A DNA stretch of 64,000 bases from an uncultured Enterobacteriaceae bacterium (GTDB lineage: Bacteria; Myxococcota_A; UBA9042). Below the pieces are notes generated by a model, which saw nothing but the letters and a program-made list of their open reading frames with translations, had not been told where the DNA came from and made no database searches. This document shows positions 33,872-59,331 of this stretch, piece after piece. The stretch's first letter is position 1. Each line of letters opens with the position of its first letter. The stretch spans positions 8,594 through 72,593 of the forward strand of contig CAYTLW010000007.1 in assembly GCA_964438735.1 (NCBI GenBank). Reading direction: 5' to 3'. The translations under genes and the position numbers were made by a program.

Positions 33872-34022
33872 GATGTCCTCCACTGGGGGTCCGGAGTCCG
33901 TCGGGGTGTGGGGCGCGCGGCATAGCACAGGGTTGGTTGCAACGAAAGGTGGATTTGTGCGCCGGCGGGCAGAGGCGGGGTCTATTCTACCCTCGCCGCA
34001 GCCTTTGAACGGGAGCCCGACC

Positions 34023-39300: not shown

Positions 39301-39846
39301 CGCGCCACAGCCGCCGCCACAGAAGGCGCCCAGGTTCTCGCCCTGCTCGCTGTAGGGCACGCAGAGGGACTTGCCGCCGCCGAGCGCGGCGCTGCAATCC
39401 GAGTCGCTCTGGCAGGGATCGCAGATGCGCGGAAAGCGCGGCACGCAGATGGACGTGGCATCGCCGGCCCCGGTGTCGACCAGCTTGCAGACGTAGTCCT
39501 CGGCGCAGTCGGTCACGCAGGTTTTGGCGCAGACCTTGCCGTCGAAGGTGTCGATGCAATAGCCCGAGTCGCACTCATCATTGCCCTTGCAGGGCTGGGC
39601 GGGCTGCTCGTCGGCGTCCGGCAGCGCGGTGCCCTGGTCGACCGGTTCGCCTGCGTCCTCATCGGCCGCATCGTTGATGACACTGTCGAAGTCCATGGTG
39701 ATGTCCGGACCCGCCGGTCCGGAGACCACGGAGTCATCGGCGGGATCCCCACAACCGGCCATGGTGCCGACGGTCATGCACAGCAGGGTGCAGAACAGAA
39801 GCATCGGGCGGGCGCCAACGGCCCGCCGGCGCGGAGTCTCGAGCAT
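36358..39846 (-). CDS. Cys-rich repeat lipoprotein (~21 Myxococcus-type cysteine-rich repeats) with C-terminal fibrinogen-related (FReD/COLFI-like) domain
   Basis: Signal peptide plus lipobox MLETPRRRAVGARPMLLFCTLLCMTVGTMAGC. Alternative ATG at 39867. G-rich Shine-Dalgarno before 39846. Repeats of CxDGNxCTxDxCxxxxGCxHxxN. C-terminus ...SCKHILDSGSSKGNGSYWIDPNGGGIGDAFSAVCLMSVAGGGWTKLY... has the hallmarks of the fibrinogen / fibrillar-collagen C-terminal fold. Confidence 0.75.
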   Translation of the reverse strand: MLETPRRRAVGARPMLLFCTLLCMTVGTMAGCGDPADDSVVSGPAGPDITMDFDSVINDAADEDAGEPVDQGTALPDADEQPAQPCKGNDECDSGYCIDTFDGKVCAKTCVTDCAEDYVCKLVDTGAGDATSICVPRFPRICDPCQSDSDCSAALGGGKSLCVPYSEQGENLGAFCGGGCGADVTCPEGWQCVDVVSVGGAKAKQCQRADLTCPCSARAKELGLVTGCSTTNGAGTCTGKRACNAKGLGACDAPAAVSETCNTQDDDCDGNTDEADPGVCDDNMVCTADSCNAGKCNHLPQAGACDDNNACTSDDACTEGKCIGTKVVCDDNNTCTIDGCDAIKGCVHNEQTGPACDDGDACTTKDICNKGVCTGGPALDCNDDNLCTDDSCDKKTGCTHLANSVACDDGDACTLADACTATECKGPGKQSCDDGNPCTTDGCDAKTACTHVHNTGACDDGNACTKEDVCASGKCAAKPVTCSDGQVCTTDGCDPAKGCTFTPNSSACDDGSACTVGDGCAAGKCQPGKALVCNDGNVCTVDECEAKTGCSHVHAKPGAPCSDGSVCTESDGCLAGKCAPGKPKSCDDGKLCTNDTCHHLNGCAHPANALPCDDGNACTANDGCKAGTCAPGNPVTCADGNVCTDDACDKAKGCVFTHNSAGCNDGNTCSDKDICKAGACTPGGPKVCDDKNNCTTDGCHWKNGCLHVANTAPCDDGNACTKPDACKDKSCAAGAPLVCDDGKVCTDDSCDKTKGCQHAPNSAKCSDGDVCTLTDSCLGGFCIPGKKKSCSDGELCTDDGCDKAKGCTFTANTKPCSDNSKCTLKDTCTGGKCAPGAAPNCDDGKLCTDDACAPATGCTHKANTKPCSDGNACTTNDICTGGSCKPGSAKNCNDNKLCTTDFCDASKGCINANNAAPCSDGSVCTLNDACNGGSCKPGSAKKCDDGNPCTLNGCDKGQGCTTKNVANGKGCGAAKWCQSGKCVPKTVGTKSNPALSCKHILDSGSSKGNGSYWIDPNGGGIGDAFSAVCLMSVAGGGWTKLYPNVASSLHGNTTKEYLYLYGNRWYRSPKTTLKWSWSSGKQLTGSYAYFNGSKGGSYTCKGSGETPHWGVGCSNGGGGQYKTLTYYGKNPNAAQGTVCQDKPGALCGCACRSNTTMYVRGH

Positions 39847-39896
39847 GATCCCCCCCTCGGTCGTCATAACAGGGTAGCGGTCTTCTGGGGGTCGGC

Positions 39897-43583: not shown

Positions 43584-46500
43584 CTACTTGCACACCCCGG
43601 CGCTGCAGGTCTTGCCGCCGCCGCAGGGGCTGTTGTCGGCCAGGTTGCCATGCTTGCAACCGGCAGCTGCGGTGCAGGTGTCCAGGGTACAGGGATTGGC
43701 GTCGTCGCAGCCCACCGAGGGCTTGTCTGCGCAGGCACCGGAGGCCGTACACTTGGTCGTGCCCCAGGCGTCGAGGCGCTGCAGCCAGCCAGCGGCCTTG
43801 TTGCCGCTGTCAGGCCGCTTGCCCACCAGGGCCAGGCCTTCCTTGAAGAGCGCGACACCGTGGGCCACGTCTGTTCCCGAGACACCAATAGTTGCGGCGC
43901 TGCGCACGTTGCCCTGCGCGTCGATGTGGGCGAGCAAGGCGTCCATCCCACCGCCCGGGCCGGGGTTCTGGTGGCCCACCGCGAACACGCCCAGGGGCGC
44001 TGCGGGAGCCAGGGCCAGCAGCAGGTTGTCGTTCGCGCCGGTGACCTTCGCCTGCCAGAGCAGGCTGCCGGAACCATTGATGCGCCAGACGCTGCCCACC
44101 TTCTTGTTGCCGCCGGCCACGTCGTGGAAGTAGCCCGCCGCGTACACGCCGTTGTCGCCATCGGAGAGGGCCGCCAGGCAGCCGTCATTCTGCGCGCCCC
44201 CGAAGGTCTTCAGCCATGACTGAGTGCCGCTGCTGGTCACGTTGAAGACCAGGCAATCGGTGCCTCCGGCACCCTGCGTCGTATCGCCGACGACGATCCC
44301 GTTGGTGCCGTGGGTCACCACGCCGCGCGCGGCCTGGTCACCGGTGCCACCGAACGTCTTGTCGAAATCCGAATTGCCGATGTCGGAGATCCGCAGCACG
44401 TACGCGTCGTAGCCGCCGCCGCCCTTGCTGTTGGTGCGACCGACCAGCAGGTGTTTGTCGGGGGCACGCCAGGCGGCCGCGAAGGCCTCCTCATCCTTGT
44501 CCCCCTCCTTGCTCTTGTCGAAGGCGAGCGTGCCATCGGCGTTGACCTTCGCCCACCACATGGCCTTGCCTTTGGCGGCGTCCAGGTTCTTGCTGCCGAA
44601 GACCAGGTGGCCAGCCTTCGCGGCGGCGATGACACCCCAGGCCACGTCGTCCTTGGCGCCGCCCCAGGTCTTCTCCTGGGTGATGGTGCCTGCGGAGTTG
44701 ACGCGCAGCAGCCAGGCATCCGCGCCGCCGGCTCCCTTGGACGTGGTGCTGCCCACCGCCACCAGCCCGCCGCCGTCGCGGGTGACGCCATGCAGCACAT
44801 CATCGCCAGAGACGCCGTAGAGTTTGGACAGCAGCTTGTCCTGCTTGCTCGCTTGGCAGACGCCGTTGGCGAAGCAGGTGCCAGGCAACGAACAGGCGTC
44901 GCCATCGGCGCAGTCGCCGGTCGCGTCGGCGTGGCTGCACACGCCCTTGTCGCAACCATCCAGCAGGCAATCCTTGCCGTCGTCGCAATCGGACGCCGAC
45001 TTGTCGGCACAACCCGATGACACGTCGCACGTGATATGGCCCCAGGCGTCCAGGCGGGCGACATGGATCTCCTCGTTGCTGTTGCCCGGCTGCGACTTGC
45101 TGGTGGTGACCACCGCGGGCGCGCCGTCGTGGGCCAGGCTGAGATCCCAGCCCCAATCCTCGCTGGCGCCGCCGACGTACTGCGTCCAGCGCGTGGTGCC
45201 GTGCAGATCGGTCGACACCACGTAGCCGTCCTCCTTGCCCAGATCGCCGTCCTTGTACGTGCCGACGGCGAAGACATTGTCGCCGACCCCCAACCGGACA
45301 CCGCGCAGGTTGTCATCGCCGTTGCCGCCGACGGTCTTGCTCCAGCGAACGCCGCCGGCCGCGTCGACCCGCAGCAGCCAGCCATCGATGCCGCCAGCGC
45401 CGAACGACTTGGTCGCCCCTGCCAGGGCGAAGCCGCCGTCGGGGAAGCGCGCCAGGCCGTAGCCCCACTCCTGGTCGCTGCCGCCGTAGTAGCGTCGCCA
45501 GCGTTCGCGGCCATCCCGATCGGTGCGCAGCAGGATCATGTCGCGGCTCTTGGAGATGCCGGCCTCGCTCTCGCCGATGATGGCGAAGCCGTCCGGCAGG
45601 GCGACCACATCATGGGCCCGGTCGACCTTGCCGCTGTAGCCCCAGGTCCGGCTGAAGAGCTTGTTGCCGCTGTTGCTGAAGGCGACCGTCAGGCCGTCCG
45701 TGCTGCCGGTGGCGATGTAGCCGACCGCGAAGAGGGCGCCGTCATCTCGCAACGCCACCGCGTGACCCCGGCTGGTGATCTCGCCGGTGACATGACCCTT
45801 GCTCCAGATCTTGCCGCCGCTGGCGTTGACTCGCATGACCATCAGCACCGGATCCTCGTCACCCAGGCTCTCGCTGAAGCCGGTGATGGCGTAGCCGCCA
45901 TCGCTCAACTGGACCAGCCCGAAGCCGTGCTCCTGGTCCTCGCCATTGGACAGGTCCACCGCCCACTTCTGCGTGCCGGCGCGATCGAGGTGGATCAGTC
46001 GCGCATTGCCATCCTCGCCGGAGCCGCCGCCGACCAGGGTGAATCCGTCGGCCGTCGTGACGATGTCGCGTCCCCAGCGCCGACTGGAGTGCGACGAGAA
46101 GGTCGAGAAGAGGCGCGGCTTGTTCAGGGTGGCGCACTTGCCCGAGCTGCAGACGCCGCCTGCCGAGCACACATTGCCGTCCTCGCACGCGCCGGCCAGG
46201 GCCGTGTATTTGCAGCCGCCGTTGGCCTTGTCGCAGCTGTCTGCGGTGCAGCTGTTGCCATCGCTGCAGATCTTCGGCTTGCCGGATGCGCAGGCGCCGG
46301 CGCTGCAGGCGTCTCCCACCGTACAGGCGTCGCCGTCGTCGCATGAGGCCGTGTTGTTGGCGAACTGGCATCCCTTGACCACGTCGCAGCTGTCGGTCGT
46401 GCAAGCGTTCTTGTCATCGCAGGTCTTCGGTGAGTTGCCCACGCACTTGCCGCCGTTGCAGGCGTCGATCTGGGTGCACACGTTGCCGTCATCACACGCT

Positions 46501-49500: not shown

Positions 49501-52007
49501 ACCGTGCAGGACAGGCCATCGCTGCAGGGCGCCTGGTTGGCCTCGTGGGCGCAGCCAGCGCCGGACTTGCAGCCGTCATTGGTACACGGGTTGCCGTCGT
49601 CACAGGCCTTGCCCTTGCCGCCGACGCAGATGCCTTCGTTGCAGGAGTCGCCAGTGGTGCATGGGTCGCCGTCGTCGCACTTCTTGCCGGCCAGGATGGG
49701 CTGGGTGGCGAGCCAGCAAGAGCCGTTGGCCGGGTTGCAGACCAGGTCGGCGCAAGGTTCGTCATCTTTCGGACATGCAGCGATGGTGGCCTGGTCGATC
49801 ACGCAGACGTGGGGGAACTTGCCGGTCTCACAGCGCAGCGTGCCGTTGCACAGGTCGCCGTCCTCGAAGATGGCGCAGTCGGCGTCCTGCTTGCAGGCGC
49901 ACACGGCCGCGCCGGGATTGCACTTGCCCGACAGGCAGACATCGCCCGCCGTGCACGGGTCGCCGTCGTTGCATAGCAGGTTGTCCTCTTTGGGCTGCAA
50001 CGCGCACGTGCCCTTGGCCGGGTCGCACAGGTTGGCCTGGCAGGCGTCGCTGTCACCGCCGGGGCAGATGACCGGCGTGGTGGGGTTGATGCGGCAGACG
50101 AAGGGCTGCGCGCTGGTATCGCAGTACAACGTGCCGTTGCAGAGGTCGCCATCTTCGCTGTCGGCGCAGTCGCTATCCTTCGTGCAGGCGCAGAGATTGG
50201 TGCCGGTGACGCACTCGCCCAGATCGCATGCGTCATCGGCGGTGCAGGCGTTGTCGTCGGCGTTGCAGGGCCAGCCCTGGTGCACGGGCTCCATTTTGCA
50301 GATGCCGGCCAGGGGCGCGCAGCGATTCTCCATGCAGGTGCTGTCGCCGCCGTCGGGACAGGTCACGACCGTCTTGGGGTTCACCTTGCAGATCTTGGGG
50401 CTGGCCAGCAGGTCGCAGTACAACGTGCCATTGCAGAGGTCGCCATCCTCGAAGGGCGCGCAGTCTGCGTTCGCCTCGCACATGCAGGTATTGGTGCCCA
50501 CCTCGCACAGCCCCTTGTTGCAGCTGTCGCCGACGGTGCACGGGTTGCCGTCGGCGTCGCACGGGCCGTTATTGTTGATGGGCTGCATGGCGCAGGCCCC
50601 GGTCTTCGGCGTACAGGTATTGCGCAGGCAGGCGGTGTCCTGGCCCGAGGCGCAGGTGATCTTGGTGGTCGGATTGACCTTGCATCGAAAGGGCTGCTCG
50701 CTGGTGTCGCAGTACAGCACGCCGTTGCAGAAGTTGCCGTCTTCCTTGGCCGCGCAGTCGGCTGTTGTCTTGCACTCGCAGGTATTGGTGGCCCCTTCGC
50801 AGCTGCCCTTTTTGCAGACCTCGCCCTGGGTGCAGGGGTTGTCGTCATCGCAGGGCAGGTTCTCGGGCATGGGCGCCGCGTAACACTTGCCGGTCTTGCT
50901 TGCACAGGCCGTGGCCGTGCAGTTGCCATCGCCGAGCTTCGGGCAACTGACCACAGTCGCCGGGTTGACCTGGCACGCCGGCTTGGCCAGCGCCAGGTTG
51001 CAGAACAGGGTGCCGCTGCAGAGATCGCCATCTTCCTTGGCGGCGCAGTCGGCGTCGGCGGCACATGGGCAGATGTTGGTGCCGGGTACGCACTGCTCTT
51101 CGACGCAGCTGTCGCCGGAGGTACACGCGCTGCCGTCCTCGCAAGCGGCACCGTCGGCCAGGGGCGTGAGCTCGCACGCGCCCGAAGCCGGATCGCACGC
51201 ATTCTGCAGGCAAGGCGTCTGCCCGGCGACGTCGCATTGCACCACCGTAGCCGGGTTGACCTTGCAACCCCAGGGCGCGCTGGAGGTGTCGCAGTACAGG
51301 GTGCCGTTGCAGGCGTTGCCGTCCTCGAAGGGCGCGCAATCGGCGCTCACCTGGCAGACGCAGATCGTACCACCTGCGACGCATTTGCCCGCCGCGCACG
51401 TCGTGTCGACGGTACAAGGCTGCCCATCGTCGCACAGGGCCCCATCGGTGATCGGGGAAGCGACGCACTTGCCCGTGGCCGACTCGCAGGCGAAGGCCTG
51501 GCAGGTGTCGTCGTCGGGGCACTGGATGACCGTCGCGGGATCCACCTCGCAACGGCCGCTGCCGCCATCCGGCACGCAGCGCAACGTGCCATTGCAGGCA
51601 TCGCCATCATCCAGGGCGGTGCAATCCGCCTTGAACTTGCACGGGCACGCATCCTTGCCGCCGCCGCACACGCCCTGCTTGCAGGTCTCGCCCAGGGTGC
51701 AGACGTCGCCGTCGTCGCAGGCGCTGCCATCGGACGCCAGCACGGGTACGCAGACCTGCTCGATGCAGAGCACGTCGGTGGCGCAGGGTCCGACGGCGCA
51801 GTCCGTGGCGGTGCTGCAGCTCGGCACGGAGACCACCGCGCCCGCGTCAGGGTCGCCGGCGATATCGCCGCTGGTGGCCAGATCGCCACCGGTGTCTGCG
51901 TTGATGATGCTGTCGATGCCCGAAGACGGGTCGGTGATGGGATCGTCGCCGCAGGCCGCCGACGAGCCGACCAGCACACCCAGCAGGACGAGGTGGCGCA
52001 ACTTCAT
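43584..52007 (-). CDS. Giant (~2807 aa) Cys-rich repeat lipoprotein: ~10 large Cys modules, ~40 Myxococcus cysteine-rich repeats, two beta-propeller domains each capped by Cys repeats
   Basis: Lipoprotein signal peptide MKLRHLVLLGVLVGSSAACGDD. ATG 52007 overlaps the stop of the upstream giant gene (ATGA). Continuous 8.4-kb ORF. Propeller blades of ~50 aa (G..D.G.AV....DGG.V.VG.T.S.G.GG.DAWLLR...G...W.KT.GG). Confidence 0.85.
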   Translation of the reverse strand: MKLRHLVLLGVLVGSSAACGDDPITDPSSGIDSIINADTGGDLATSGDIAGDPDAGAVVSVPSCSTATDCAVGPCATDVLCIEQVCVPVLASDGSACDDGDVCTLGETCKQGVCGGGKDACPCKFKADCTALDDGDACNGTLRCVPDGGSGRCEVDPATVIQCPDDDTCQAFACESATGKCVASPITDGALCDDGQPCTVDTTCAAGKCVAGGTICVCQVSADCAPFEDGNACNGTLYCDTSSAPWGCKVNPATVVQCDVAGQTPCLQNACDPASGACELTPLADGAACEDGSACTSGDSCVEEQCVPGTNICPCAADADCAAKEDGDLCSGTLFCNLALAKPACQVNPATVVSCPKLGDGNCTATACASKTGKCYAAPMPENLPCDDDNPCTQGEVCKKGSCEGATNTCECKTTADCAAKEDGNFCNGVLYCDTSEQPFRCKVNPTTKITCASGQDTACLRNTCTPKTGACAMQPINNNGPCDADGNPCTVGDSCNKGLCEVGTNTCMCEANADCAPFEDGDLCNGTLYCDLLASPKICKVNPKTVVTCPDGGDSTCMENRCAPLAGICKMEPVHQGWPCNADDNACTADDACDLGECVTGTNLCACTKDSDCADSEDGDLCNGTLYCDTSAQPFVCRINPTTPVICPGGDSDACQANLCDPAKGTCALQPKEDNLLCNDGDPCTAGDVCLSGKCNPGAAVCACKQDADCAIFEDGDLCNGTLRCETGKFPHVCVIDQATIAACPKDDEPCADLVCNPANGSCWLATQPILAGKKCDDGDPCTTGDSCNEGICVGGKGKACDDGNPCTNDGCKSGAGCAHEANQAPCSDGLSCTVGDGCTGGKCVAGKAKVCDDGNPCTIDTCLKNSGKCSTKAQAGSCDDGNACTSSDACKAGGCVGTSVKCEDGNPCTKHTCDTDKGCLQSPASASCSDGSACTVGDTCSGGKCVPGKPTSCDDGKLCTTDACDKLKGCVHSPSTAKCDDGNPCTAGDTCKAGACQAGGNICGCEKDADCKAKEDGNVCNGTLRCDKAKAPFVCVVDLKTIVTCSAAKNSTCRVNTCDAKTGKCKLLPRNEGKSCDADGSVCTAADTCYLGLCKPGKSLLCNDGQVCTADSCDKAKGCTFTASGGACDDGDKCTTNDGCKGGKCAPGAALGCNDKNACTTDQCKPLVGCSNVATTAPCDDGNTCTSGDACAAGSCVPGEAVKCDDGNPCTNDGCDIKSGCSHVANKQPCNDGNKCTIGDSCAASKCVAGKAKSCDDNNPCTDDSCGVKTGACSHGHNGKPCDDGTVCTKSDACGGGVCKGVAINCDDNNACTDDACDAVKGCTHGANTKPCDDGSKCTLTDTCKSGGCVGSGAPSCDDGNPCTNDGCDKAKGCTHAANSATCDDNNVCTSGDKCSGGSCQSGANQCACTKNSDCAAKEDGNPCNGTLICDTSKAPYACKIDPKTIVTCDSSQNTTCVVNVCIAKTGACKLSAKNTGNPCSDGSKCTVGDLCKGGACDPGSAADCSDGNPCTTDSCKAAIGCVNTVNVSPCNDGNACTTKDTCSVGKCVGGQAPVCDDGKVCTTDSCDKAKGCVTANNTAPCDDGSKCTTVDVCAGGSCSGSKPPNCDDGNGCTTDSCSKAAGCVYSNNSASCDDGSKCTLNDACSGGACKGGPAPNCGDGKVCTTDSCDPAKGCQHVNNTAACDDGDGCTTTDGCKGGTCVGSGAPSCNDGKVCTTDSCDKAKGCVHVNNTAACDDADACTTADTCSGGNCVGGKAPDCNDGNVCTTDSCDKATGCKQVNNTATCDDGDACTASDACSGGTCGGKKVTCDDGNTCTDDVCDKAKGCVFTNHTKACDDGNVCTQIDACNGGKCVGNSPKTCDDKNACTTDSCDVVKGCQFANNTASCDDGDACTVGDACSAGACASGKPKICSDGNSCTADSCDKANGGCKYTALAGACEDGNVCSAGGVCSSGKCATLNKPRLFSTFSSHSSRRWGRDIVTTADGFTLVGGGSGEDGNARLIHLDRAGTQKWAVDLSNGEDQEHGFGLVQLSDGGYAITGFSESLGDEDPVLMVMRVNASGGKIWSKGHVTGEITSRGHAVALRDDGALFAVGYIATGSTDGLTVAFSNSGNKLFSRTWGYSGKVDRAHDVVALPDGFAIIGESEAGISKSRDMILLRTDRDGRERWRRYYGGSDQEWGYGLARFPDGGFALAGATKSFGAGGIDGWLLRVDAAGGVRWSKTVGGNGDDNLRGVRLGVGDNVFAVGTYKDGDLGKEDGYVVSTDLHGTTRWTQYVGGASEDWGWDLSLAHDGAPAVVTTSKSQPGNSNEEIHVARLDAWGHITCDVSSGCADKSASDCDDGKDCLLDGCDKGVCSHADATGDCADGDACSLPGTCFANGVCQASKQDKLLSKLYGVSGDDVLHGVTRDGGGLVAVGSTTSKGAGGADAWLLRVNSAGTITQEKTWGGAKDDVAWGVIAAAKAGHLVFGSKNLDAAKGKAMWWAKVNADGTLAFDKSKEGDKDEEAFAAAWRAPDKHLLVGRTNSKGGGGYDAYVLRISDIGNSDFDKTFGGTGDQAARGVVTHGTNGIVVGDTTQGAGGTDCLVFNVTSSGTQSWLKTFGGAQNDGCLAALSDGDNGVYAAGYFHDVAGGNKKVGSVWRINGSGSLLWQAKVTGANDNLLLALAPAAPLGVFAVGHQNPGPGGGMDALLAHIDAQGNVRSAATIGVSGTDVAHGVALFKEGLALVGKRPDSGNKAAGWLQRLDAWGTTKCTASGACADKPSVGCDDANPCTLDTCTAAAGCKHGNLADNSPCGGGKTCSAGVCK

Positions 52008-55000
52008 TTGCACACCCCCGCCGAACACTTCTTGCCATCACCGCAGTCGCTGCCGTCGGCGTAGGTCTTCTTGACGCATCCCGTCGACGGCGTGCAGCCG
52101 CTCTTGGTGCAGGGGTTGTTATCCTCGCAAGCTGTGGCCTTGACCGCGCCGCACTTGCCGGCCGTCTTGCAGTCCGTATGGCCCCACGAGTTGATGCGCA
52201 GCAGCCAGGCGTCGCCACCGCCGGCGCCGAAGGTGTTGGTCAGCCCGGCAGCCAGCGTGTCCTCGCCCAAGGTGACGGCGGCCTTGCCCCAGTCTCTGCC
52301 CTTGCCGCCGATCCAGGCCGACCAGCGCGCTGTTCCATCGCTGCCGACGCGATACCACCACAGCGCCGAGGTGGTCGAGGCGGAGCTGTATCGTCGCTCG
52401 CCGACCATCACCCAGCCGCCGGGCATGGCCGTCAGGCCCCAGGCGGTGGTCTGGTAGCTGCCGCCGGTGCCGTAGGTCTTCTCCCAGAGCAGCTTGCCGC
52501 TGTCGTTGACGCTCGCCAGCCAGGCCTTGCGATTGCCGAAGACCACGTCGCGGCTGCCGGCCACCACCACGGCACCCTTGACAGCCGCCACCGCATGGGC
52601 GCGATCGTCGAGCTTGCCGGCACCGAAGCGCTGCGCCCAGGCGAGCTTGCCCGCGCTGCTGCTGCGTATGACGAACGCCTGCCTGCCGATGGTGAAGGAC
52701 TGGGTCCAGCCGACCGCCACCACGTCGCCCTGGCTCGTCTCCACCACGTCGTGGGCTTCGTCCTTTGCGGCGCCGCCGTACTGCAGCGACCACATGAAGG
52801 CGCCTGCCTTGCTGAAGCGCAGAACGTCGGCCTTCTCCTTCTTGCTCACCGCGGTGTGACCGGCGACCAGCAGGTCCCCGTTGGCCGCGGCATGTACCGC
52901 CTGCAAGCCGTCCTTGCCCGAACCGCCACGATAGGTCTGCCAGACCTTGCTGCCATCGGTTTTGGCCTTGTACAGCCACATATCTTCCTTGTTCTTGCCG
53001 ATCTTGGTGTCCGACTGACCGACCATCACCAACGCCCCGTCGGAGGTGGCAGCCAGGTCGTTGAAGCCGTCCTTGCCCGCTGCCGTGCCGAAGAACTTGC
53101 TCACCTTGGCGGTGCCCGTGGCTGTGGCGACGACCAGGTAGCCATCGGCATCGCCGCCGGCGGTGGAGCGGCTCGTTCCGGCCAGCGCGAACGTGCCATC
53201 AGCCAGTGCGACGACACCGCCAGCTTCGTCCAGGCCCTTGCCGCCATGGGCCACCGAGAACAGCCGACCGACACCAGAGTCGTAGCAGGCCCCCGCCTTG
53301 CATCGGCCGATGTTGCACGAGCTCACATTCGGCTGGCACGGCGTGCCCAACTGGTTGACGACCACGCAGCCCTTGGCGTTGTCGCACTTGTCGTCGGTAC
53401 AGGCGTTGCCGTCGTCGCAACTGACCGGCGCGCCGGGACTGCAGCTGCCGCCACCACAACTGTCGCCCTTGGTGCAGCTGTCGCCATCGCTGCAGCTGGT
53501 GTTGTTGTTCACATTCTGGCAGCCGACCGCCTTGTCGCAGCTGTCGTCGGTGCAGCTGTTGCCGTCATCGCAGTTGGGCGGCTTGCTACCGACACAGGAA
53601 CCCGCGTTGCAGTAGTCGGCGGTGGTGCACTTGTCGCCGTCATCGCAGTTGCTCGTATTGTTGACGTTCTTGCACCCTGAATCCGACTGGCAGCTGTCTG
53701 TGGTGCACGGATTGCCGTCGTCGCAATTCTTGGCCGGTCCGCCGGCGCATTTTCCCTTCGAGCAGACATCTTTGGTCGTGCAGACGCTACCATCGTCGCA
53801 GGCGTCGCTGTTGTTGACCGGCTTGCATCCCGTGGCGCCGTCGCAGCCATCGGTGGTGCAGGGATTGCCATCGTCGCAATTCGGCGGCTTCGAGCCGACG
53901 CACGCTCCGGCGGCACACTTGTCCACGGTCGTACATTTATCGCCGTCGTCGCAGTTCGCGGTGTTGTGGACCTGCTGGCATCCCTTCAGCTTATCGCAGC
54001 TGTCGCTGGTACAGGCATCGCCATCGTCGCAATTGGGAGCGCTCGCACCCACGCACTTGCCAGCGGCACATTTGTCTACCGTGGTGCACTTGCTGCCGTC
54101 GTCGCAGCCCAGCGAATTGGCGGGGTGGGTGCAGCCGGTCGACACATTGCAGCCGTCGGTGGTGCACGGGTTGCCATCATCGCAGTTCGGCGGCTTGCTG
54201 CCGCTGCATGAACCGCCCTTGCAGGCGTCGACCGTGGTGCACTTGCTGCCGTCGTCACACGACGCGCTGTTATTGGCGTGCGTACATCCGGAGACCTTGG
54301 CGCAGGCGTCCGACGTGCACGGATTGCCGTCATTGCAATCGGGCGGGGTGCTGCCCTTGCAGGCGCCGCCTTTGCACGTGTCGACTGTGGTGCACTTGTC
54401 GCCGTCGTCGCAACCCGCGCTGTTGGCCACGTGCTTGCAGCCCGTCGCTGGCGAACAGCTGTCATCGGTGCACGGCTTGGCGTCGTTGCAGTCGACCTTG
54501 GCGCCAGGCTGGCAGCTCTTGCTGGCGCATTTATCATTCGCCGTGCACTTGCTGCCGTCGTCACAAGGCGAGGTGTTGGCGACGTGCGTGCAGCCGCTGA
54601 GCTTGTTGCAGCCATCGTTGGTGCAGGGGTTGCCATCATCACACGACAAGGCGCTGCCCTTGATGCAGGCGCCCGAGGCGCACGCGTCCTTGACGGTGCA
54701 GACGCTGCCGTCGGCGTCGCAGGGTCCGCCTTCATTGCGCGGCGTCAGGGCGCACTTGCCGGTCTTGGTGGCACATACGTTGTGCTTGCAAGCCGTATCG
54801 CCGCTACTGGAGCAGGTGATGACGGTCTTCGGGTCGACCTTGCACGCATAGGGCGGCTTGGACGTGTCGCAATACAACGTGCCGTTGCAGACATTGCCGT
54901 CCTCGGACGCTGCGCAATCGGCGTTCTTGATGCACGCGCAGGTGTTCGTGCCCGGCTTGCAGACGCCGTTGACGCAGGCGTCCGGCGTGGTGCAGGGATC

Positions 55001-58000
55001 ACCATCGCTGCACGGGGCCTTGGCCGGCTGATGTTGGCAGCCGCCGGATACCACAGGGCTGCAGCTGTCGGCGGTGCAGGGGTTCTTGTCGTCGCACTTC
55101 TTGGCCACGCCACCGCTGCACGAGCCCTTGTTGCACGCCTCCCCGACGGTGCAGGGGTTCTTGTCGTCGCAGGCGCCCGCGGCTGGTTTGTGCACGCAAC
55201 CGGTCGACGCGTTGCAGCTGTCATGAGTGCAGTCGTTGCCGTCGTCGCAGTCGATGTTCTTGCCCTTGCATTCGCCGGCGACGCAGGCATCGGCCTTGGT
55301 ACAGGCGTTGCCATCGCTGCACGTGCCGGTGATGGCGATGGCCTTGCAGGCGCCGCTCTTGGACTCGCAGATGTCGTTGGTGCAGGTCTTTCCGTCATCG
55401 CAGACGGTCGCTGCACCCGAGGTGCAAAGGCCGGCCTTGCAGACGTCGTTCTTCGTGCACAGATTGCCGTCCTCGCAGGACGCGTTATTGGCTGTGTTGA
55501 CGCAGCCCTTGGCCTTGTCACATCCGTCGTTGGTGCACGGGTTGCCGTCGCCACAAGAGGGCGCTGCACCGCCGACACATTTGCCGCCTTTGCATGCGTC
55601 ACCGCCGGTGCACGCATCGCCGTCGTTGCACGCCTTGTTGTTGGGCACGTGGGCGCAGCCGCTGGACTTGACGCAGGCGTCCGCGGTGCATGGGTTGCCG
55701 TCGTCGCAAGGCTTCGGGGCGCCGGGTTTGCACGCTCCCTGTTTGCAGGTATCGCCGACCGTGCACACGTCGCCATCGCTGCAGGGCGAGGAATTCGGCG
55801 TGTGGGTACAACCCTTGCCCGCGTCGCACTTGTCGAATGTACAGGGGTTGGTGTCGTTGCAGGCCAGCTTTGGCCCCGCAAGGCACTTGCCCGAGTTGCA
55901 GGCGTCGCCCGAGGTACACACGCTGCCGTCAGCGTCGCAGGGCTGGCCCTGGTTGGCCGGCAGGCTCTGGCATTTGCCGCTGGTCTTGTCGCAGGAGATC
56001 GCCCGGCAGGGGTCGCTGCTGGTGCCGCAATTCACGATGGATGAGGGGATGATCTTGCACGAGAACGGCGGTTTGGACGTGTCGCAATAGAGCTTGCCGT
56101 TGCAGACATTGGCGTCGTCCTTGGCGGTGCATTCGATGTTGGTCTTGCAGCCGCAGATGTCCTTGCCCGGCAGGCACTTGCCAGCGCCACAGAGGTCCTT
56201 CTCCGTGCAGGGATTGCCGTCATCACAGGGCTTCAGCGGGTTGACCGTGACGCAGCCCTTGGCCTTGTCGCAGACGTCGATGGTGCACTCATTGTTGTCG
56301 TTGCAGTCCACCTTGGGACCGGGCTTGCAGCTACCAGCGGCGCACAGGTCTGACTTGGTGCAGGCGTTGCCATCGTCGCACGCACCGCCGATGGCGGGAT
56401 GGGCGCAGCCACTGCCCGGCTTGCAGAAGTCGGCCGTGCAAGCATTGCCGTCATCACATGCCTTGGCCTTGCCCGTGCACCCCCCGGCCGTGCAGGCGTC
56501 ATTGACCGTGCAGAGGTTGCCGTCGTCGCACTTGTCGCCCGCGAAGGTCGACTTGCATGCGCCGGTCGCCGCCACGCAACCATCCGTCGTGCAGGGGTTG
56601 CCGTCGTCGCAGTTCTTGGTCGCGCCGGGCTTGCAGGCCCCCTTGGCGCAGACGTCTCCCAAAGTGCATGGGTCGTCGTCGCTGCACGGGGCCTGCGTTG
56701 CTTGGTGGACGCAGCCCTTCAACGCGTCGCAGCCGTCGCTGGTGCAGCCGTTGCCATCATCACAGGCCAGAGCGGCGCCGGGCTTGCAGGTCAGCCCGTC
56801 GCAGACATCCCCCTTTGTGCACGCGCTGCCATCATTGCAGGGCTGGCCGAACTTGGCCGGTGCCGGCAGCCCGTCGCATTTGCCGGACTTGGTATTGCAG
56901 CCGTAGACCGCGCAAGGCAGGGGTTTGGCCGGGCACGCGACGTCACCGGCGGGATCCTTGACGCAGACCGACTTGGGGCCGGAGGTGTCGCAGACGAGCG
57001 CCGCCGTGCAGAGGTTGTCATCATCCAGCTTGGCGCAGTCTGCGTCGCTGGCGCAGCCGCAGACGCTCGGTCCGGACACGCACTGGCCATCAAGACAGGC
57101 GTCACCCTTGGTGCAGAGCAGGCCGTCCTCGCAGCCCGTGCCGTCCTTTTCCAGGCTCGCCGCGCACTTGCCCGTCGCCGGCACGCAGCCGCCCGCCGCG
57201 CAGCCGGGATCGCCTGGCTTGTCACAGGTCACCACGGTCGCCGGATTGAGCGCGCACTGGAAAGGAAGCTTCGACTTGTTGCAATACAGCGTGCCGTTGC
57301 ACAGATTGCCATCGTCCTTGACCGCACAGTCCCCATCGCTGGTGCATGCGCAGGCATTCGGCCCGGCCACGCAGCTGCCCAGGTCGCAGGCGTCGTCCGG
57401 CGTGCAGGCGTTGTTGTCGGCGTTGCAGGCGTGGCCCTGGGCCTTGGCGACCACTTTGCAGTTGCCCGTGGCCGGCTGGCACTGGTTGGTCGCGCAGGCG
57501 GTGTCGCCGCCAGGGCAGTTGATGACAGAGTTTGGATCGACCTCGCACTTGAAGGGCAGGGTCGCCTTGCTGCAGAACAGGCTGCCATTGCAGGCATCGC
57601 CATCCTCGTGGGCCGCACAATCCTTGTCGGCCTGGCACGCGCAGTCGTTGGCACCGGCAGCACATGTGCCTTCGATGCAGTGGTCGTTGGCGGTGCAAGC
57701 GTTGCCGTCGGCGTCGCAGGGTTTGCCCTCGTTGATCCCGACAAAGCTGCACGTGCCAGTCTTGGGCGCGCAAGCTGCGGCGGCACATTGCCCGTCCAGG
57801 GGTGGCTTGCAGACCACCAAGGTCTTGGCGTTGACCTTGCAGCGGAAGGGCGCCTGGGACTTGTCGCAGAACAGGGTGCCGTTGCACAGGTCGCCGTCCT
57901 CGAACGCGCCGCAGTCGGCGTTGGATGTGCAGGTGCAGCTGAACTTGCCCGACTTGCACGAGCCCGCCGCACAGGCGTCGCCCACGGTGCAGCCATTGCC

Positions 58001-59197
58001 ATCGGAGCAGGGTTTCGCCTCGTTGATGGGCAGGACGCCACATTTGCCGCTCTCCGGCTGGCAGGCGGTGACGTGACAGGGCCCCTCCTCGCCGGTGCAG
58101 GTGACCACCGTGGCCGGGTTGATTCGGCAGCCGGGCGTCTCGGCGGCGAGATCGCAGAAGAGCTGTCCTTCGCACTTGTTCTTGGGCTGCAATGGCGTGC
58201 AATCACTTTCGGATTTGCACGGGCAGATGTTCTTGCCGGCGGCGCATTCGCCACCCTTGCACACGTCGCTCTTCGTACAGGCGTCGCCGTCGGTGCACGT
58301 GGCGCTCTGGGGAAGATCGGTGAGCGCGCACTCGCCGGATTTGGGGTCGCAGAGGTTCTTTCGACACGGGCTGTCCAGGGCGCCGCTGCAGGTGATCAGG
58401 GTCGCTGGATTGACTTTGCAGGTGAATGGGAAGCCTGAGGTGTCGCAATACAGGCTGCCATTGCAGAGGTTGCCGTCATCTTGGCCTGTGCAGTCGGCGT
58501 GACTGAGACACTCGCAAAGCTCGGTGCCCGCGGTACAGACGCCCGACTTGCAGGTATCCCCGGCCGTGCAGGGTTTGCCATCATCGCAGTTGGCGCCATC
58601 CGGTTCGGGCTTCGCGGTGCAGGTGCCCGTCTTGGCGTCGCAGACCTGCGACGAACAGGCTGCCTCCCCCTTGGCACATTGTACGACGCTGGCCGGGTTC
58701 ACCTTGCACACCGGCGGGTCGACGTCGTGGTCGCAGTAGAGCGTGCCGTTGCACAGGTCGCCATCCTCCTGGGACGCGCAATCCGAACTCAACTGGCAGC
58801 CGCAAGTGTTGGGCCCGGGAACGCAGGCGCCGCTGTCGCAGGTGTCGTCTTTGGTGCAGGAGTGGCCGTCGTCGCAAGACGTGCCTGCGGCCGATGGGAC
58901 GAAGGCGCAGGCGCCGGACAGGCAGGCAGAGGTCAAACAGGGAGAAGTGGCGTCGGGGCAGTCATCTCTTGTGCCACATTGCGCTGCGGCATCGCTCGGG
59001 GCAGGTCCCACTTCGGCCAGCCCGCCATCGACGTGCACGTCGGACGTTCCAGCCAGGCTGTCGCCAATGCCGGCGCCCGTGGGTTCGTCGCAAGACGCCA
59101 TCGCGAGCAGGCAGATTGTGGCAAGAAAGACTACATTGGCTCGCGCGCAGCGTGCGCCAGCGGAGAACGGGCTTCGAGTCATTTCGCGTAGTCGCAT
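52004..59197 (-). CDS. Giant (~2397 aa) Cys-rich repeat lipoprotein: same two module types (~60 repeats) plus C-terminal beta-propeller and Cys cap
   Basis: Lipoprotein signal peptide (MRLREMTRSPFSAGARCARANVVFLATICLLAMASC). Alternative ATG at 59182. Continuous 7.2-kb ORF, first gene of the minus-strand operon. Confidence 0.85.
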   Translation of the reverse strand: MRLREMTRSPFSAGARCARANVVFLATICLLAMASCDEPTGAGIGDSLAGTSDVHVDGGLAEVGPAPSDAAAQCGTRDDCPDATSPCLTSACLSGACAFVPSAAGTSCDDGHSCTKDDTCDSGACVPGPNTCGCQLSSDCASQEDGDLCNGTLYCDHDVDPPVCKVNPASVVQCAKGEAACSSQVCDAKTGTCTAKPEPDGANCDDGKPCTAGDTCKSGVCTAGTELCECLSHADCTGQDDGNLCNGSLYCDTSGFPFTCKVNPATLITCSGALDSPCRKNLCDPKSGECALTDLPQSATCTDGDACTKSDVCKGGECAAGKNICPCKSESDCTPLQPKNKCEGQLFCDLAAETPGCRINPATVVTCTGEEGPCHVTACQPESGKCGVLPINEAKPCSDGNGCTVGDACAAGSCKSGKFSCTCTSNADCGAFEDGDLCNGTLFCDKSQAPFRCKVNAKTLVVCKPPLDGQCAAAACAPKTGTCSFVGINEGKPCDADGNACTANDHCIEGTCAAGANDCACQADKDCAAHEDGDACNGSLFCSKATLPFKCEVDPNSVINCPGGDTACATNQCQPATGNCKVVAKAQGHACNADNNACTPDDACDLGSCVAGPNACACTSDGDCAVKDDGNLCNGTLYCNKSKLPFQCALNPATVVTCDKPGDPGCAAGGCVPATGKCAASLEKDGTGCEDGLLCTKGDACLDGQCVSGPSVCGCASDADCAKLDDDNLCTAALVCDTSGPKSVCVKDPAGDVACPAKPLPCAVYGCNTKSGKCDGLPAPAKFGQPCNDGSACTKGDVCDGLTCKPGAALACDDGNGCTSDGCDALKGCVHQATQAPCSDDDPCTLGDVCAKGACKPGATKNCDDGNPCTTDGCVAATGACKSTFAGDKCDDGNLCTVNDACTAGGCTGKAKACDDGNACTADFCKPGSGCAHPAIGGACDDGNACTKSDLCAAGSCKPGPKVDCNDNNECTIDVCDKAKGCVTVNPLKPCDDGNPCTEKDLCGAGKCLPGKDICGCKTNIECTAKDDANVCNGKLYCDTSKPPFSCKIIPSSIVNCGTSSDPCRAISCDKTSGKCQSLPANQGQPCDADGSVCTSGDACNSGKCLAGPKLACNDTNPCTFDKCDAGKGCTHTPNSSPCSDGDVCTVGDTCKQGACKPGAPKPCDDGNPCTADACVKSSGCAHVPNNKACNDGDACTGGDACKGGKCVGGAAPSCGDGNPCTNDGCDKAKGCVNTANNASCEDGNLCTKNDVCKAGLCTSGAATVCDDGKTCTNDICESKSGACKAIAITGTCSDGNACTKADACVAGECKGKNIDCDDGNDCTHDSCNASTGCVHKPAAGACDDKNPCTVGEACNKGSCSGGVAKKCDDKNPCTADSCSPVVSGGCQHQPAKAPCSDGDPCTTPDACVNGVCKPGTNTCACIKNADCAASEDGNVCNGTLYCDTSKPPYACKVDPKTVITCSSSGDTACKHNVCATKTGKCALTPRNEGGPCDADGSVCTVKDACASGACIKGSALSCDDGNPCTNDGCNKLSGCTHVANTSPCDDGSKCTANDKCASKSCQPGAKVDCNDAKPCTDDSCSPATGCKHVANSAGCDDGDKCTTVDTCKGGACKGSTPPDCNDGNPCTSDACAKVSGCTHANNSASCDDGSKCTTVDACKGGSCSGSKPPNCDDGNPCTTDGCNVSTGCTHPANSLGCDDGSKCTTVDKCAAGKCVGASAPNCDDGDACTSDSCDKLKGCQQVHNTANCDDGDKCTTVDKCAAGACVGSKPPNCDDGNPCTTDGCDGATGCKPVNNSDACDDGSVCTTKDVCSKGKCAGGPAKNCDDGNPCTTDSCQSDSGCKNVNNTSNCDDGDKCTTADYCNAGSCVGSKPPNCDDGNSCTDDSCDKAVGCQNVNNNTSCSDGDSCTKGDSCGGGSCSPGAPVSCDDGNACTDDKCDNAKGCVVVNQLGTPCQPNVSSCNIGRCKAGACYDSGVGRLFSVAHGGKGLDEAGGVVALADGTFALAGTSRSTAGGDADGYLVVATATGTAKVSKFFGTAAGKDGFNDLAATSDGALVMVGQSDTKIGKNKEDMWLYKAKTDGSKVWQTYRGGSGKDGLQAVHAAANGDLLVAGHTAVSKKEKADVLRFSKAGAFMWSLQYGGAAKDEAHDVVETSQGDVVAVGWTQSFTIGRQAFVIRSSSAGKLAWAQRFGAGKLDDRAHAVAAVKGAVVVAGSRDVVFGNRKAWLASVNDSGKLLWEKTYGTGGSYQTTAWGLTAMPGGWVMVGERRYSSASTTSALWWYRVGSDGTARWSAWIGGKGRDWGKAAVTLGEDTLAAGLTNTFGAGGGDAWLLRINSWGHTDCKTAGKCGAVKATACEDNNPCTKSGCTPSTGCVKKTYADGSDCGDGKKCSAGVCK

Positions 59198-59331
59198 CAG
59201 CCCATAGCCCCAACACGCCAGAGTCGGTCCGATCAACCTACTCTCCGCCCGAACCGGCAGCAATTTTTCGCGCGCGAGCGCTCGACCGCTGTTCACTGGA
59301 CCAGGGGCGCACCCTGAGCGATTCTCCCGGC

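What the first reader, a model, noticed from the sequence alone, without database searches (positions are those of the whole stretch)
43584..59197. Two translationally coupled giant lipoprotein genes (7.2 kb + 8.4 kb) with shared modular grammar
Both ORFs are continuous with no internal stops over 15.6 kb and share one architecture. After the lipobox come alternating large Cys modules (C.C..DADCA..EDGD.CNGTLYCD....C..NP.TVV.C) and short modules (CDDGN.CT.D.C....GC.H..N). These are followed by one or two ~6-7-bladed beta-propellers, each closed by a further Cys-repeat cap. The downstream start overlaps the upstream stop (ATGA at 52004-52007), which implies stoichiometric co-expression. DNA-level repeats of this kind are recombination-prone, so copy-number variation between strains is plausible.
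Basis: seen in the sequence. Interest (0 to 1): 0.65.

Follow-up and report, generated by a model that had tools for sequence, protein, structure and literature searches.

The report
Paired giant cysteine-rich stalk-and-propeller lipoproteins
Two adjacent, very long bacterial genes encode probable membrane-tethered proteins built from about 60 small disulfide-knotted modules and tipped by seven-bladed propeller heads; they belong to a large, unstudied family in uncultured myxobacteria-like bacteria and most likely act as long surface adhesion or matrix fibres.

Summary
Two minus-strand genes, A (52004-59197, 2397 aa) and B (43584-52007, 2807 aa), are intact, share an ATGA stop/start overlap, and are collinear paralogs (45% identity). 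Each stalk has 9 large and about 45 short Cys modules, with identical Cys counts in all six stalk segments. A ends in one 7-bladed beta-propeller and B in two, each followed by a Cys cap.

A and B head a five-gene operon (A-B-C-D-E). D carries the same large modules plus a catalytically dead FGE-like head. E carries the short modules plus a collagen-C-propeptide-like head.

The short 'a' module is Pfam Dicty_CTDC. The 93-aa large unit has no Pfam or PDB match but occurs in about 1,700-2,500 protein clusters, all seen in uncultured Myxococcota-type MAGs. The propeller is a delta-60/DUF5122-type domain, closest to the CylK propeller but without CylK's catalytic partner domain.

The "recombination-prone" reading is weak. 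Repeats are only 62-78% identical at DNA level, and two other assemblies of the operon show no indels. A's ortholog at 53% identity keeps every module. B's ortholog lost two 51-aa units and most of one propeller.

Best reading: co-expressed lipid-anchored stalk-and-head surface or matrix proteins. This is a new variant of a known kind, of moderate interest.

The parts
52004..59197 (-). Gene A: 2397-aa Cys-rich (12.5% Cys, 299 Cys) lipoprotein-type protein with one C-terminal propeller
   Evidence: ORF and translation. Pfam Dicty_CTDC at 173.6 bits with 19 stretches. Ortholog P0045 is 52.8% identical and collinear.
59090..59197 (-). A signal peptide and lipobox (aa 1-36, Cys36)
   Evidence: Read from the sequence. 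The ortholog has ALVAGG|C at the aligned position. The start is uncertain because other gene callers use Met33.
56849..58876 (-). A array of seven b+L large units (aa 108-783, 98 Cys)
   Evidence: Regex and MAFFT of the units.
53270..56848 (-). A short-module stalk: a/b runs of 8, 12 and 19 modules, separated by single large units at aa 991-1085 and 1396-1491
   Evidence: The 'a' modules are the Pfam Dicty_CTDC matches.
52178..53269 (-). A beta-propeller (aa 1977-2340, no Cys)
   Evidence: Aligns to the same six inter-blade motifs as the modelled B propeller 1. 45% identical to the ortholog's propeller.
52007..52177 (-). A C-terminal Cys cap (aa 2341-2397, 9 Cys)
52004..52007 (-). ATGA stop/start overlap between A and B
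   Evidence: The ortholog pair in L002 has a GTGA overlap.
43584..52007 (-). Gene B: 2807-aa paralog of A (309 Cys) with two propellers
   Evidence: The exact sequence occurs in 5 public assemblies, all 2807 aa.
51951..52007 (-). B signal peptide and lipobox (aa 1-19, Cys19)
   Evidence: Read from the sequence.
49680..51719 (-). B array of seven b+L large units (aa 97-776, 98 Cys)
46119..49679 (-). B short-module stalk with two interspersed large units (aa 981-1077 and 1385-1481). It includes the 153-bp-period array at 46211-47413.
45036..46118 (-). B propeller 1 (aa 1964-2324), 7 blades
   Evidence: AF2 pLDDT 93, pTM 0.92, 28 strands. Foldseek match to CylK with TM 0.86 and E 2e-21. Homologs are delta-60/DUF5122 proteins.
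44838..45035 (-). B cap 1 (aa 2325-2390, 10 Cys)
43758..44837 (-). B propeller 2 (aa 2391-2750)
   Evidence: Reduced to a single blade in the ortholog P0040.
43584..43757 (-). B cap 2 (aa 2751-2807, 9 Cys) plus stop codon
42659..43519 (-). Gene C: 286-aa protein with a signal peptide, an Ala/Lys-rich helical region and C-terminal hydrophobic segments. No family match.
   Evidence: AGGAGG lies 8 nt upstream of its ATG. Its stop overlaps the start of D by 1 nt.
39897..42659 (-). Gene D: 920-aa lipoprotein-type protein with 5 large units and a C-terminal FGE-sulfatase-fold domain that lacks both catalytic Cys
   Evidence: Pfam PF03781 at 1e-40. Units aligned. Alignment to solved FGEs.
36358..39846 (-). 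Gene E: 1162-aa lipoprotein-type protein with 26 a/b short modules and a C-terminal COLFI-like domain

Best explanation
A and B are co-transcribed, exported proteins, probably tethered to the membrane by an N-terminal lipid. Each consists of a flexible 40-70 aa tether, then a very long rod of disulfide-knotted modules (about 148 and 154 disulfides). The rod displays one (A) or two (B) seven-bladed delta-60/DUF5122-type beta-propellers at its far, C-terminal end.

The rod acts as a rigid spacer. By analogy with EGF or TNFR-type arrays it would be tens of nm to about 100 nm long; this length is inferred, not measured. The propellers are the ligand-binding heads.

The same operon encodes two further proteins that use the same stalk modules to display other, non-catalytic binding heads: an FGE/C-type-lectin-like fold in D and a collagen-C-propeptide-like domain in E. 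The locus therefore most likely builds a set of long surface or extracellular-matrix fibres for adhesion to surfaces, prey, or other cells.

Shown here: gene structure, module grammar, family membership, propeller fold, operon layout, and conservation.
Inferred: lipidation, surface exposure, disulfide formation, rod shape, and the binding function.
For: Export and anchor. Signal-peptide and lipobox patterns occur on A, B, D and E. By a rough regex, 69 of 119 giant homologs also have lipobox-like N-termini.

Structural disulfides. 99.3% of Cys are conserved between orthologs, against 46-48% identity for other residues. Mature Cys counts are even: 296 in A and 308 in B.

Stalk modules. The stalk consists of Pfam Dicty_CTDC repeats. 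In Dictyostelium these mark matrix proteins such as EcmA and EcmB (PMC4931340).

The large unit folds confidently. Its core has pLDDT above 90, with a hairpin, a helix and two further hairpins.

Heads. The propeller model is confident and has 7 blades. Its sequence relatives are mostly 450-600 aa proteins, many carrying a T9SS C-terminal sorting domain, which marks secreted proteins. The heads evolve faster than the stalk: 40-45% versus 55-62% identity between orthologs. This fits specificity-determining tips.

Mix-and-match family. The family combines the same stalk with many different binding domains, including RCC1, NHL, Kelch, TSP1, VWA, C-type lectin and cohesin.

Operon partners. D's FGE-like head lacks both catalytic Cys.

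Precedent. In Myxococcus TraA, Cys-rich repeats are proposed to be a rigid stalk presenting a head domain, and traA and traB overlap translationally (PMC3325183).

Coupling. The A/B overlap is conserved in another species.
Against: - There is no experimental or expression evidence of any kind.
- The lipobox calls rest on pattern only. B lacks the classical Leu at position -3.
- A's start codon is ambiguous.
- Nothing shows how a 2,400-2,800 aa lipoprotein would reach the cell surface.
- The propeller family has no known ligand.
- No coordinates were available to check predicted disulfides or rod geometry.
Confidence: 0.55

Rival explanations
1. Released extracellular-matrix or sheath structural proteins. 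A, B, D and E are shed or secreted and polymerise into a matrix, like Dictyostelium EcmA/EcmB, rather than acting as cell-attached adhesins.
For: They share Dicty_CTDC repeats with slime-mould matrix proteins. One homolog is named 'extracellular matrix protein' by its source. Neighbouring genes carry eukaryote-type matrix domains: COLFI-like and Somatomedin B.
Against: Lipobox-type N-termini on all four proteins argue for membrane tethering, at least initially. No polymerisation or cross-linking domain was identified.
Confidence: 0.2
2. Kin or cell-cell recognition receptors that work like TraA. Homotypic or heterotypic binding between propeller heads on neighbouring cells would give the pair a social-recognition role.
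For: The stalk-plus-head logic and the translationally overlapping partner gene resemble traAB. The heads diverge faster than the stalks. Each genome holds many paralogs, with up to six contigs per MAG among the best 80 loci.
Against: There is no PA14 domain, TIGR04201 repeat or MYXO-CTERM tag. The three assemblies compared at DNA level, and all five protein-cluster members, are nearly identical, with no hypervariable region, although these strains are too close for a real test. No TraB/OmpA-like partner is present.
Confidence: 0.1
3. Tethered extracellular enzymes. The propellers (CylK-like) and the FGE-like domain would be catalytic, with the stalk only positioning them.
For: The closest solved structure to the propeller is the enzyme CylK (TM 0.86, E 2e-21). 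D matches the FGE-sulfatase family at 1e-40.
Against: The CylK active site lies at the interface with an N-terminal Ca-binding domain that supplies Arg105 (PMC8916777), and that domain is absent here. D lacks both FGE catalytic cysteines: 'LCHDSYC' aligns to 'LV---STAAEV'. Identity to CylK is only about 20%.
Confidence: 0.08
4. Assembly artefact or decaying pseudogenes. The repeats were mis-assembled or collapsed in a metagenome, so the lengths and module order are not real.
For: The repetitive sequence comes from a metagenome-type source. The B ortholog P0040 shows deletions and a Cys-to-Phe change in its cap.
Against: Two other assemblies of the operon, from different samples, are gap-free and 99.93-99.97% identical to the window over 16-23 kb. 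The repeats are too diverged (78% identity or less) to collapse. 99.3% of Cys are conserved across orthologs, and there are no stops in 5,200 codons.
Confidence: 0.02

Closest known systems
Pfam PF00526 Dicty_CTDC, the 'Dictyostelium (slime mold) repeat' found in matrix proteins such as EcmA, EcmB and PsiA
   Same: The 'a' short modules (CDDGNxCTxDxCxxxxGC) match the model far above threshold: 173.6 bits for A and 144.5 bits for B against a cut-off of 27, with 19 stretches each. Both groups are extracellular, Cys-rich and arranged in tandem arrays.
   Different: The host is bacterial and the N-terminus is lipoprotein-type. The 'a' modules alternate strictly with a second module type, b, that Pfam does not score. 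The arrays are interleaved with a 62-aa, 10-Cys core that has no Pfam model, and they end in beta-propellers.
Myxococcus xanthus TraA (PA14 head, TIGR04201 Cys-rich stalk, MYXO-CTERM anchor) with its partner TraB
   Same: Both are myxobacterial surface proteins in which Cys-rich tandem repeats are proposed to form a rigid stalk presenting a binding head. In both cases the gene overlaps the next gene translationally. The TraA authors noted a resemblance to PF00526 (PMC3325183).
   Different: The polarity is opposite: here the anchor is N-terminal and the head C-terminal. There is no PA14, TIGR04201 or MYXO-CTERM match. The stalk holds about 280 Cys against 71 in TraA. The partner is a paralog rather than an OmpA-like protein.
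delta-60 repeat / DUF5122 beta-propeller proteins (TIGR02608, PF17164) and the CylK C-terminal propeller
   Same: Both are 7-bladed propellers with a period of about 52 aa and a W...YGG...D.G...DGG motif. phmmer relatives reach E 1e-68, and many of them carry PF17164. The best solved match is CylK with TM 0.86.
   Different: The window's propellers score below the curated thresholds of both models. They sit at the end of a giant Cys-rich stalk rather than in 450-600 aa proteins, many with a T9SS sorting tail. CylK's catalytic N-terminal domain is absent.
Giant repetitive bacterial adhesins in general (stalk of tandem repeats plus a distal binding domain)
   Same: The overall logic is the same: a very long repeat-built spacer with ligand-binding domains at the far end.
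   Different: The modules are disulfide-knotted mini-domains of eukaryotic ECM style rather than Ig-like or RTX-type repeats. The anchor is a lipobox. No RTX or T1SS family matched. This comparison rests on general knowledge and was not tested further here.

Membership tests
Pfam PF00526 Dicty_CTDC repeat proteins | Whole-protein score above the gathering threshold (27 bits), with multiple repeat matches | tested here: met
   A scores 173.6 bits and B 144.5 bits, with 19 stretches each. E scores 161 bits. D scores 23.4 bits, which is below the cut-off.
Pfam PF00526 Dicty_CTDC repeat proteins | A unit of about 24 aa with four Cys, arranged in tandem | tested here: met
   The best stretches are 'a' modules such as CDDGNDCTHDSCNASTGCVHKP. 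There are 19 'a' modules in A and 21 in B.
Bacterial lipoproteins (signal peptidase II substrates) | A positively charged n-region, a hydrophobic h-region and a lipobox ending in Cys | tested here: inconclusive
   The patterns fit a PROSITE-like rule as recalled from memory: A has LLAMAS|C and B has GSSAA|C. B lacks the classical Leu at -3, A's start is ambiguous, and no LipoP or SignalP tool was available.
Bacterial lipoproteins (signal peptidase II substrates) | Actual lipidation and membrane localisation | not testable with these tools
   This needs biochemistry, such as globomycin sensitivity, palmitate labelling or fractionation.
delta-60 repeat / DUF5122 beta-propeller (TIGR02608, PF17164) | A score above the curated cut-offs | tested here: not met
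   TIGR02608 scores 19.4 bits against a cut-off of 76.5. PF17164 gives E 4.1.
delta-60 repeat / DUF5122 beta-propeller (TIGR02608, PF17164) | Homology to family members and a 7-bladed propeller fold | tested here: met
   There are 241 relatives at E of 1e-5 or better, many carrying PF17164 or named 'delta-60 repeat protein'. The model has 28 strands and pTM 0.92.
CylK-type alkylating enzymes | An N-terminal Ca-binding domain fused to the propeller, forming the interdomain active site (Arg105, Tyr473, Asp440) | tested here: not met
   Only the propeller part matches: chain residues 382-581 by sequence and TM 0.86 by fold. Cys-rich modules lie upstream where the Ca domain would be. The active-site definition comes from PMC8916777.
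Formylglycine-generating enzymes (gene D head) | The catalytic Cys pair in the RGGS-x-C-x-x-x-Y-C motif | tested here: not met
   The S. coelicolor FGE motif 'GGSYLCHDSYCNRYR' aligns to 'GGSLV---STAAEVR' in D, so both Cys are absent. The fold family PF03781 itself is matched at 1e-40.
TraA-type kin-recognition receptors | A PA14 domain, TIGR04201 repeats and a MYXO-CTERM (TIGR03901) tag | tested here: not met
   None of these appears in the Pfam or NCBIfam scans of A and B at E of 0.01 or better. The features are defined in PMC3325183.

The most novel reading that the evidence does not exclude
A and B may not be independent adhesins. They could be the two chains of one in-register, equal-length fibre. 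Their stalks have identical module numbers in all six segments, and the coupled gene pair is conserved.

Such a fibre would be built partly from a 10-Cys domain with a previously unseen fold. Its Dicty_CTDC building blocks might share ancestry, through inter-domain gene transfer, with the matrix proteins of social amoebae. Two independent aggregative lineages would then use the same matrix module.
Probability: 0.1. Interest if true: 0.7.

Novelty: new variant of a known kind. Interest (0 to 1): 0.4.

Why it matters
If the reading is right, uncultured freshwater and groundwater Myxococcota devote tens of kilobases per locus, at several loci per genome, to eukaryote-style disulfide-knotted surface fibres that can carry different heads.

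That would give three things.
- A structural basis for adhesion, predation or matrix building in a group with no cultured representatives.
- A large, uncurated domain family (the 93-aa large unit, about 1,700-2,500 clusters) that merits a family model and an experimental structure.
- A concrete test case for whether Dicty_CTDC repeats in slime moulds and myxobacteria share ancestry.

The proteins are also an extreme case for oxidative folding in bacteria, with about 150 disulfides per chain.

Tried and rejected
Searches and look-ups that gave nothing.
- A profile of the large unit against PDB sequences gave only spurious Cys-rich hits at E 0.013 or worse. A two-unit stretch of B gave nothing below E 0.5.
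- Gene C as an anchor for orthologous loci gave no confirmed hits in genome contigs or metagenome contigs.
- The full large-unit alignment was too variable for the search for related loci. A four-sequence sub-alignment worked.
- An exact look-up of B's contigs from the window sequence failed, but the look-ups through cluster members P0008 and P0002 worked.
- The first homolog search, with a 194-aa two-unit query, returned only short proteins and missed the giants. The full-length query was needed.
- Attempts to name the organism through housekeeping proteins returned no organism names.
- The promoter and terminator scan found nothing above the shuffled expectation.
- Literature searches for bacterial Dicty_CTDC or PF00526 giants found no description.

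Ideas rejected.
- Simple 'recent tandem amplification' of repeats: all units are 78% identical or less at DNA level.
- Catalytic FGE activity for D.
- CylK-like chemistry for the propellers.
- Location on a mobile island: the flanks are core genes, including nuo, dapB and SAH hydrolase.
Full report
**Observation**

The window has 66.6% GC. On the minus strand it holds two uninterrupted ORFs: 52004..59296 (stop-to-stop) and 43584..52028.

Using the first ATG that gives a signal peptide, gene A is 52004..59197 (2397 aa) and gene B is 43584..52007 (2807 aa). Random sequence of this composition would stay open over such lengths with probability of about 1e-24 and 1e-29.

The A stop and the B start overlap as ATGA at 52004-52007.

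Both N-termini have a charged n-region, a hydrophobic core and a lipobox-type Cys: A has LLAMAS|C36 and B has GSSAA|C19. Gene callers in other assemblies start A at Met33, which would remove the signal peptide. The ortholog P0045 has ...LLGFCAALVAGG|CGDD at the aligned position. I therefore keep the longer start and flag it as uncertain.

**Module grammar**

There are three Cys modules.
- 'a' = CDDGNxCTxDxCxxxxGC. This is the module that Pfam scores as Dicty_CTDC: 173.6 bits for A and 144.5 bits for B, with 19 stretches each.
- 'b' = CxDGxxCTxxDxCxxGxC.
- 'L' is a large core, CxCxxxxDCxxxEDGDxCNGTLYCDxxxxPxxCKVNPxTVVxC, followed by a CxxxxCxxxxGxC tail.

A 'b' always precedes an L, which gives a 93-97 aa unit with 14 Cys. 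There are 23 such units in A (9), B (9) and D (5), and they align with 15 invariant columns.

The order in A and B is (bL)x7, 8 short modules, bL, 12 short modules, bL, 19 short modules, then propeller and cap.

Cys counts per segment are identical in A and B: 98/32/14/48/14/76. A and B are 45% identical and collinear over about 2410 columns. For 6 of 9 large units in A, the best match in B is the unit at the same position. A and B are therefore whole-gene paralogs whose modules diverged in place. They are not products of recent internal amplification.

**Heads**

A has one Cys-free block of about 360 aa, and B has two. Each block is followed by a 57-66 aa cap with 9-10 Cys.

B propeller 1, modelled with 56 homologs, gives pLDDT 93 and pTM 0.92, with 28 strands, meaning seven four-stranded blades. 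The other two propellers align to the same six inter-blade G...W...YGG motifs.

By sequence the only solved relative is the CylK propeller, at E 6e-8. By fold CylK is far ahead of all other propellers: TM 0.86 and E 2e-21, against about 1e-8 for the rest.

Database relatives are mostly 450-600 aa proteins. Many carry DUF5122/PF17164 matches or a T9SS sorting tail. The few that carry organism labels come from Bacteroidota-type, WOR-3, Zixiibacteriota and Aegiribacteria MAGs, and some are named 'delta-60 repeat protein'. The window's propellers themselves score below the curated cut-offs of those models.

CylK catalysis needs an N-terminal Ca-binding domain that contributes Arg105 (PMC8916777). 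That domain is absent here.

The two genes head a run of five same-strand genes.
- C (42659-43519, 286 aa) has a signal peptide, an Ala/Lys-rich region and hydrophobic C-terminal segments, with no family match. It follows B after 64 nt and has an AGGAGG 8 nt before its ATG.
- D (39897-42659, 920 aa) starts 1 nt inside C's stop codon, as TGATG. It has a lipobox, five large units and a C-terminal FGE-sulfatase domain at 1e-40. Aligned to solved FGEs, the catalytic 'LCHDSYC' is replaced by 'LV---STAAEV'. The head is therefore an FGE fold without the catalytic cysteines.
- E (36358-39846, 1162 aa) has a lipobox, 26 a/b modules and a C-terminal domain matching the start of the fibrillar-collagen C-propeptide family at 3.4e-10.

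The same gene order is called in two other assemblies.

Upstream, a Ser/Thr kinase gene is transcribed divergently. Its likely start is GTG at 59331, which leaves 133 bp between it and A.

The remainder of the window holds core chromosomal genes: SAH hydrolase, dapB, a nuo operon and a molybdopterin oxidoreductase. The locus is therefore not on an obvious mobile element.

**Family**

A full-length search with B returned more than 2,000 proteins at E of 1e-10 or better from only 8,000 scored candidates.

The top 120 are 1,600-4,900 aa Dicty_CTDC proteins. Those that carry a name are called 'hypothetical', 'cysteine-rich repeat protein' or 'extracellular matrix protein'. The labelled ones come from MAGs named Deltaproteobacteria, Myxococcales or Myxococcota, with one Pseudomonadota. 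Many combine the stalk with other binding domains, including RCC1, NHL, Kelch, TSP1, LTD, cohesin, VWA, C-type lectin and subtilase.

A profile of the large unit, searched against 1.84 billion representatives, found 2,514 proteins at E of 1e-3 or better, 1,749 at 1e-10 and 717 at 1e-30. The matches cover the full unit, with 5-36 stretches per protein.

The unit has no Pfam hit even at E 10. It has no PDB relative by sequence or profile and no significant Foldseek match. Its core nevertheless models at pLDDT above 90.

In species-representative genomes the unit was confirmed at 283 places. The best 80 are all in uncultured MAGs, many of whose isolate names point to lakes (Baikal, Erken, Loclat) or groundwater. 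Up to six contigs per MAG appear among them.

No paper describing these bacterial proteins was found.

**Test of the recombination and copy-number idea**

DNA identity between repeats is low.
- Large units: mean 62%, maximum 69.5%.
- 153-bp a+b units: mean 64%, maximum 78%.
- TRF arrays: 68-75% matches.
- The longest exact direct repeat in the 22.8-kb operon is 31 bp. Short exact repeats of 14 nt or more are nevertheless 35 times more frequent than in a control region: 670 against 19.

Two assemblies from other samples match the window's operon at 99.93% over 22,973 bp and 99.97% over 16,302 bp, with no gaps. All five members of B's cluster are 2807 aa. These strains are nearly identical, so this test has little power.

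At greater depth, contig CAZLMW010000098.1 carries the orthologous pair, A-like followed by B-like, with a GTGA overlap.
- The A ortholog (P0045) is 52.8% identical and differs only by two 11-aa indels.
- The B ortholog (P0040) is 54.6% identical. It lacks exactly two 51-aa a+b units and about 317 aa of the second propeller. It keeps that propeller's last blade and a cap with a Cys-to-Phe change.

A, P0045 and B all have the same module count, so these differences are most simply deletions in P0040. Unit-sized changes therefore do occur, but rarely, and the architecture is otherwise frozen.

Cys positions are 99.3% conserved between orthologs, against 46-48% identity for other residues. Mature Cys counts are even, at 296 and 308. 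Both facts fit a fully disulfide-bonded structure.

**Mechanism**

The best-supported reading is a stalk-and-head surface or matrix protein. It would have an N-terminal lipid tether, a rigid rod of disulfide-knotted modules, and distal propeller heads that bind a ligand. A and B would be co-expressed with D and E, which put other non-catalytic binding folds on the same kind of stalk.

Support comes from five points.
- The export signals on all four proteins.
- The Cys conservation pattern.
- The matrix association of Dicty_CTDC repeats in Dictyostelium.
- The faster divergence of heads (40-45% identity) than of stalks (55-62%).
- The family-wide mixing of one stalk with many binding domains.

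TraA provides a precedent. Its Cys-rich repeats are proposed to form a rigid stalk, and traA and traB overlap translationally.

Lipidation, surface exposure, disulfides, rod length and binding are all inferred, not shown.

The rivals are a shed matrix protein, a TraA-like recognition receptor, tethered enzymes and an artefact. They are weighed in the rivals section. The enzyme reading is weakened by the missing CylK partner domain and the missing FGE cysteines. The artefact reading is weakened by the independent gap-free assemblies.

**Verdict**

Its evolutionary inference is only weakly supported, and 'stoichiometric' over-reads a 4-nt overlap.

The locus is a member of a large, uncharacterised, lineage-restricted family. 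That family combines a known repeat (PF00526) with an uncurated 10-Cys domain and swappable heads.

I rate it a new variant of a known kind (Cys-rich-stalk surface proteins) and of moderate interest. The most interesting open points are the large unit's fold, the equal-length A/B stalks, and the slime-mould connection.

Noticed in passing
window 36358-43519 (-): Three more same-strand genes follow B. C has no family match. D has five large units and an FGE-like head. E has 26 short modules and a COLFI-like head. The C stop and D start overlap by 1 nt (TGATG), so the finding's two genes are the first part of a five-gene operon.
   Followed up: yes
window 39897-40682 (-), C-terminal domain of D: The FGE-sulfatase-fold domain lacks both catalytic cysteines. 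It has a 3-residue deletion where S. coelicolor FGE has LCHDSYC. Its nearest NCBIfam models are GldK/PorK, SenA and EgtB, all below their thresholds.
   Followed up: yes
window 36358-36957 (-), C-terminus of E: There is a partial match (40 bits, E 3.4e-10) to the fibrillar-collagen C-terminal propeptide family COLFI, which is a metazoan matrix domain, in a bacterial lipoprotein-type protein.
   Followed up: partly
window 31904-33871 (-) and 33768-36323 (+): Two neighbouring secreted-type proteins also carry eukaryote-style extracellular domains. One has two Somatomedin B domains (2e-16). The other has a proprotein-convertase P-domain (6e-8) and a Cys-pair-rich C-terminal region. The region looks like a cluster of matrix-like genes.
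   Followed up: no
window 59331-61194 (+): A Ser/Thr protein kinase gene is transcribed divergently from A. The listed ORF starts at 58894, but the kinase most likely starts at GTG 59331, leaving a 133-bp shared upstream region.
   Followed up: partly
window 59101 versus 59197 (start of A): Public gene calls start A at Met33 (2365 aa, beginning 'MASCDEPTG'), which deletes the signal peptide. Alignment with the ortholog's lipobox supports the upstream start. The exact 2397-aa sequence is therefore absent from the protein collection.
   Followed up: yes
L002/L010 (contig CAZLMW010000098.1); protein P0040: The B ortholog in the closest species keeps only the last blade of the second propeller, plus a cap in which one Cys has become Phe. 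It has also lost two exact 51-aa a+b units. In that contig the D-like gene lies upstream on the opposite strand, and no C-like gene was seen.
   Followed up: partly
loci L002, L004, L006, L010, L016, L022, L029, L045, L059, L065, L071, L072, L076, L079: Several MAG records titled 'uncultured Enterobacteriaceae/Enterobacterales bacterium' (binchicken and SRP co-assemblies) carry these high-GC, Myxococcota-type Cys-rich genes. The organism names in those titles look like placeholders or mislabels.
   Followed up: no
window 43584-59197 (+ strand): Many long ORFs, up to 714 aa (for example 48739-50883), lie on the strand opposite A and B. They are a by-product of the GC-rich, stop-poor antisense frames and have no support as genes.
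   Followed up: partly
window 42659-43519 (-), gene C: The protein ends in ...GLVWAVRF and has two Gly/Ala-rich hydrophobic segments after a long Ala/Lys-rich stretch. It has only a weak TPR-like hit to PgaA (E 0.006). Its role is unknown, and it might be an assembly or anchoring factor.
   Followed up: no
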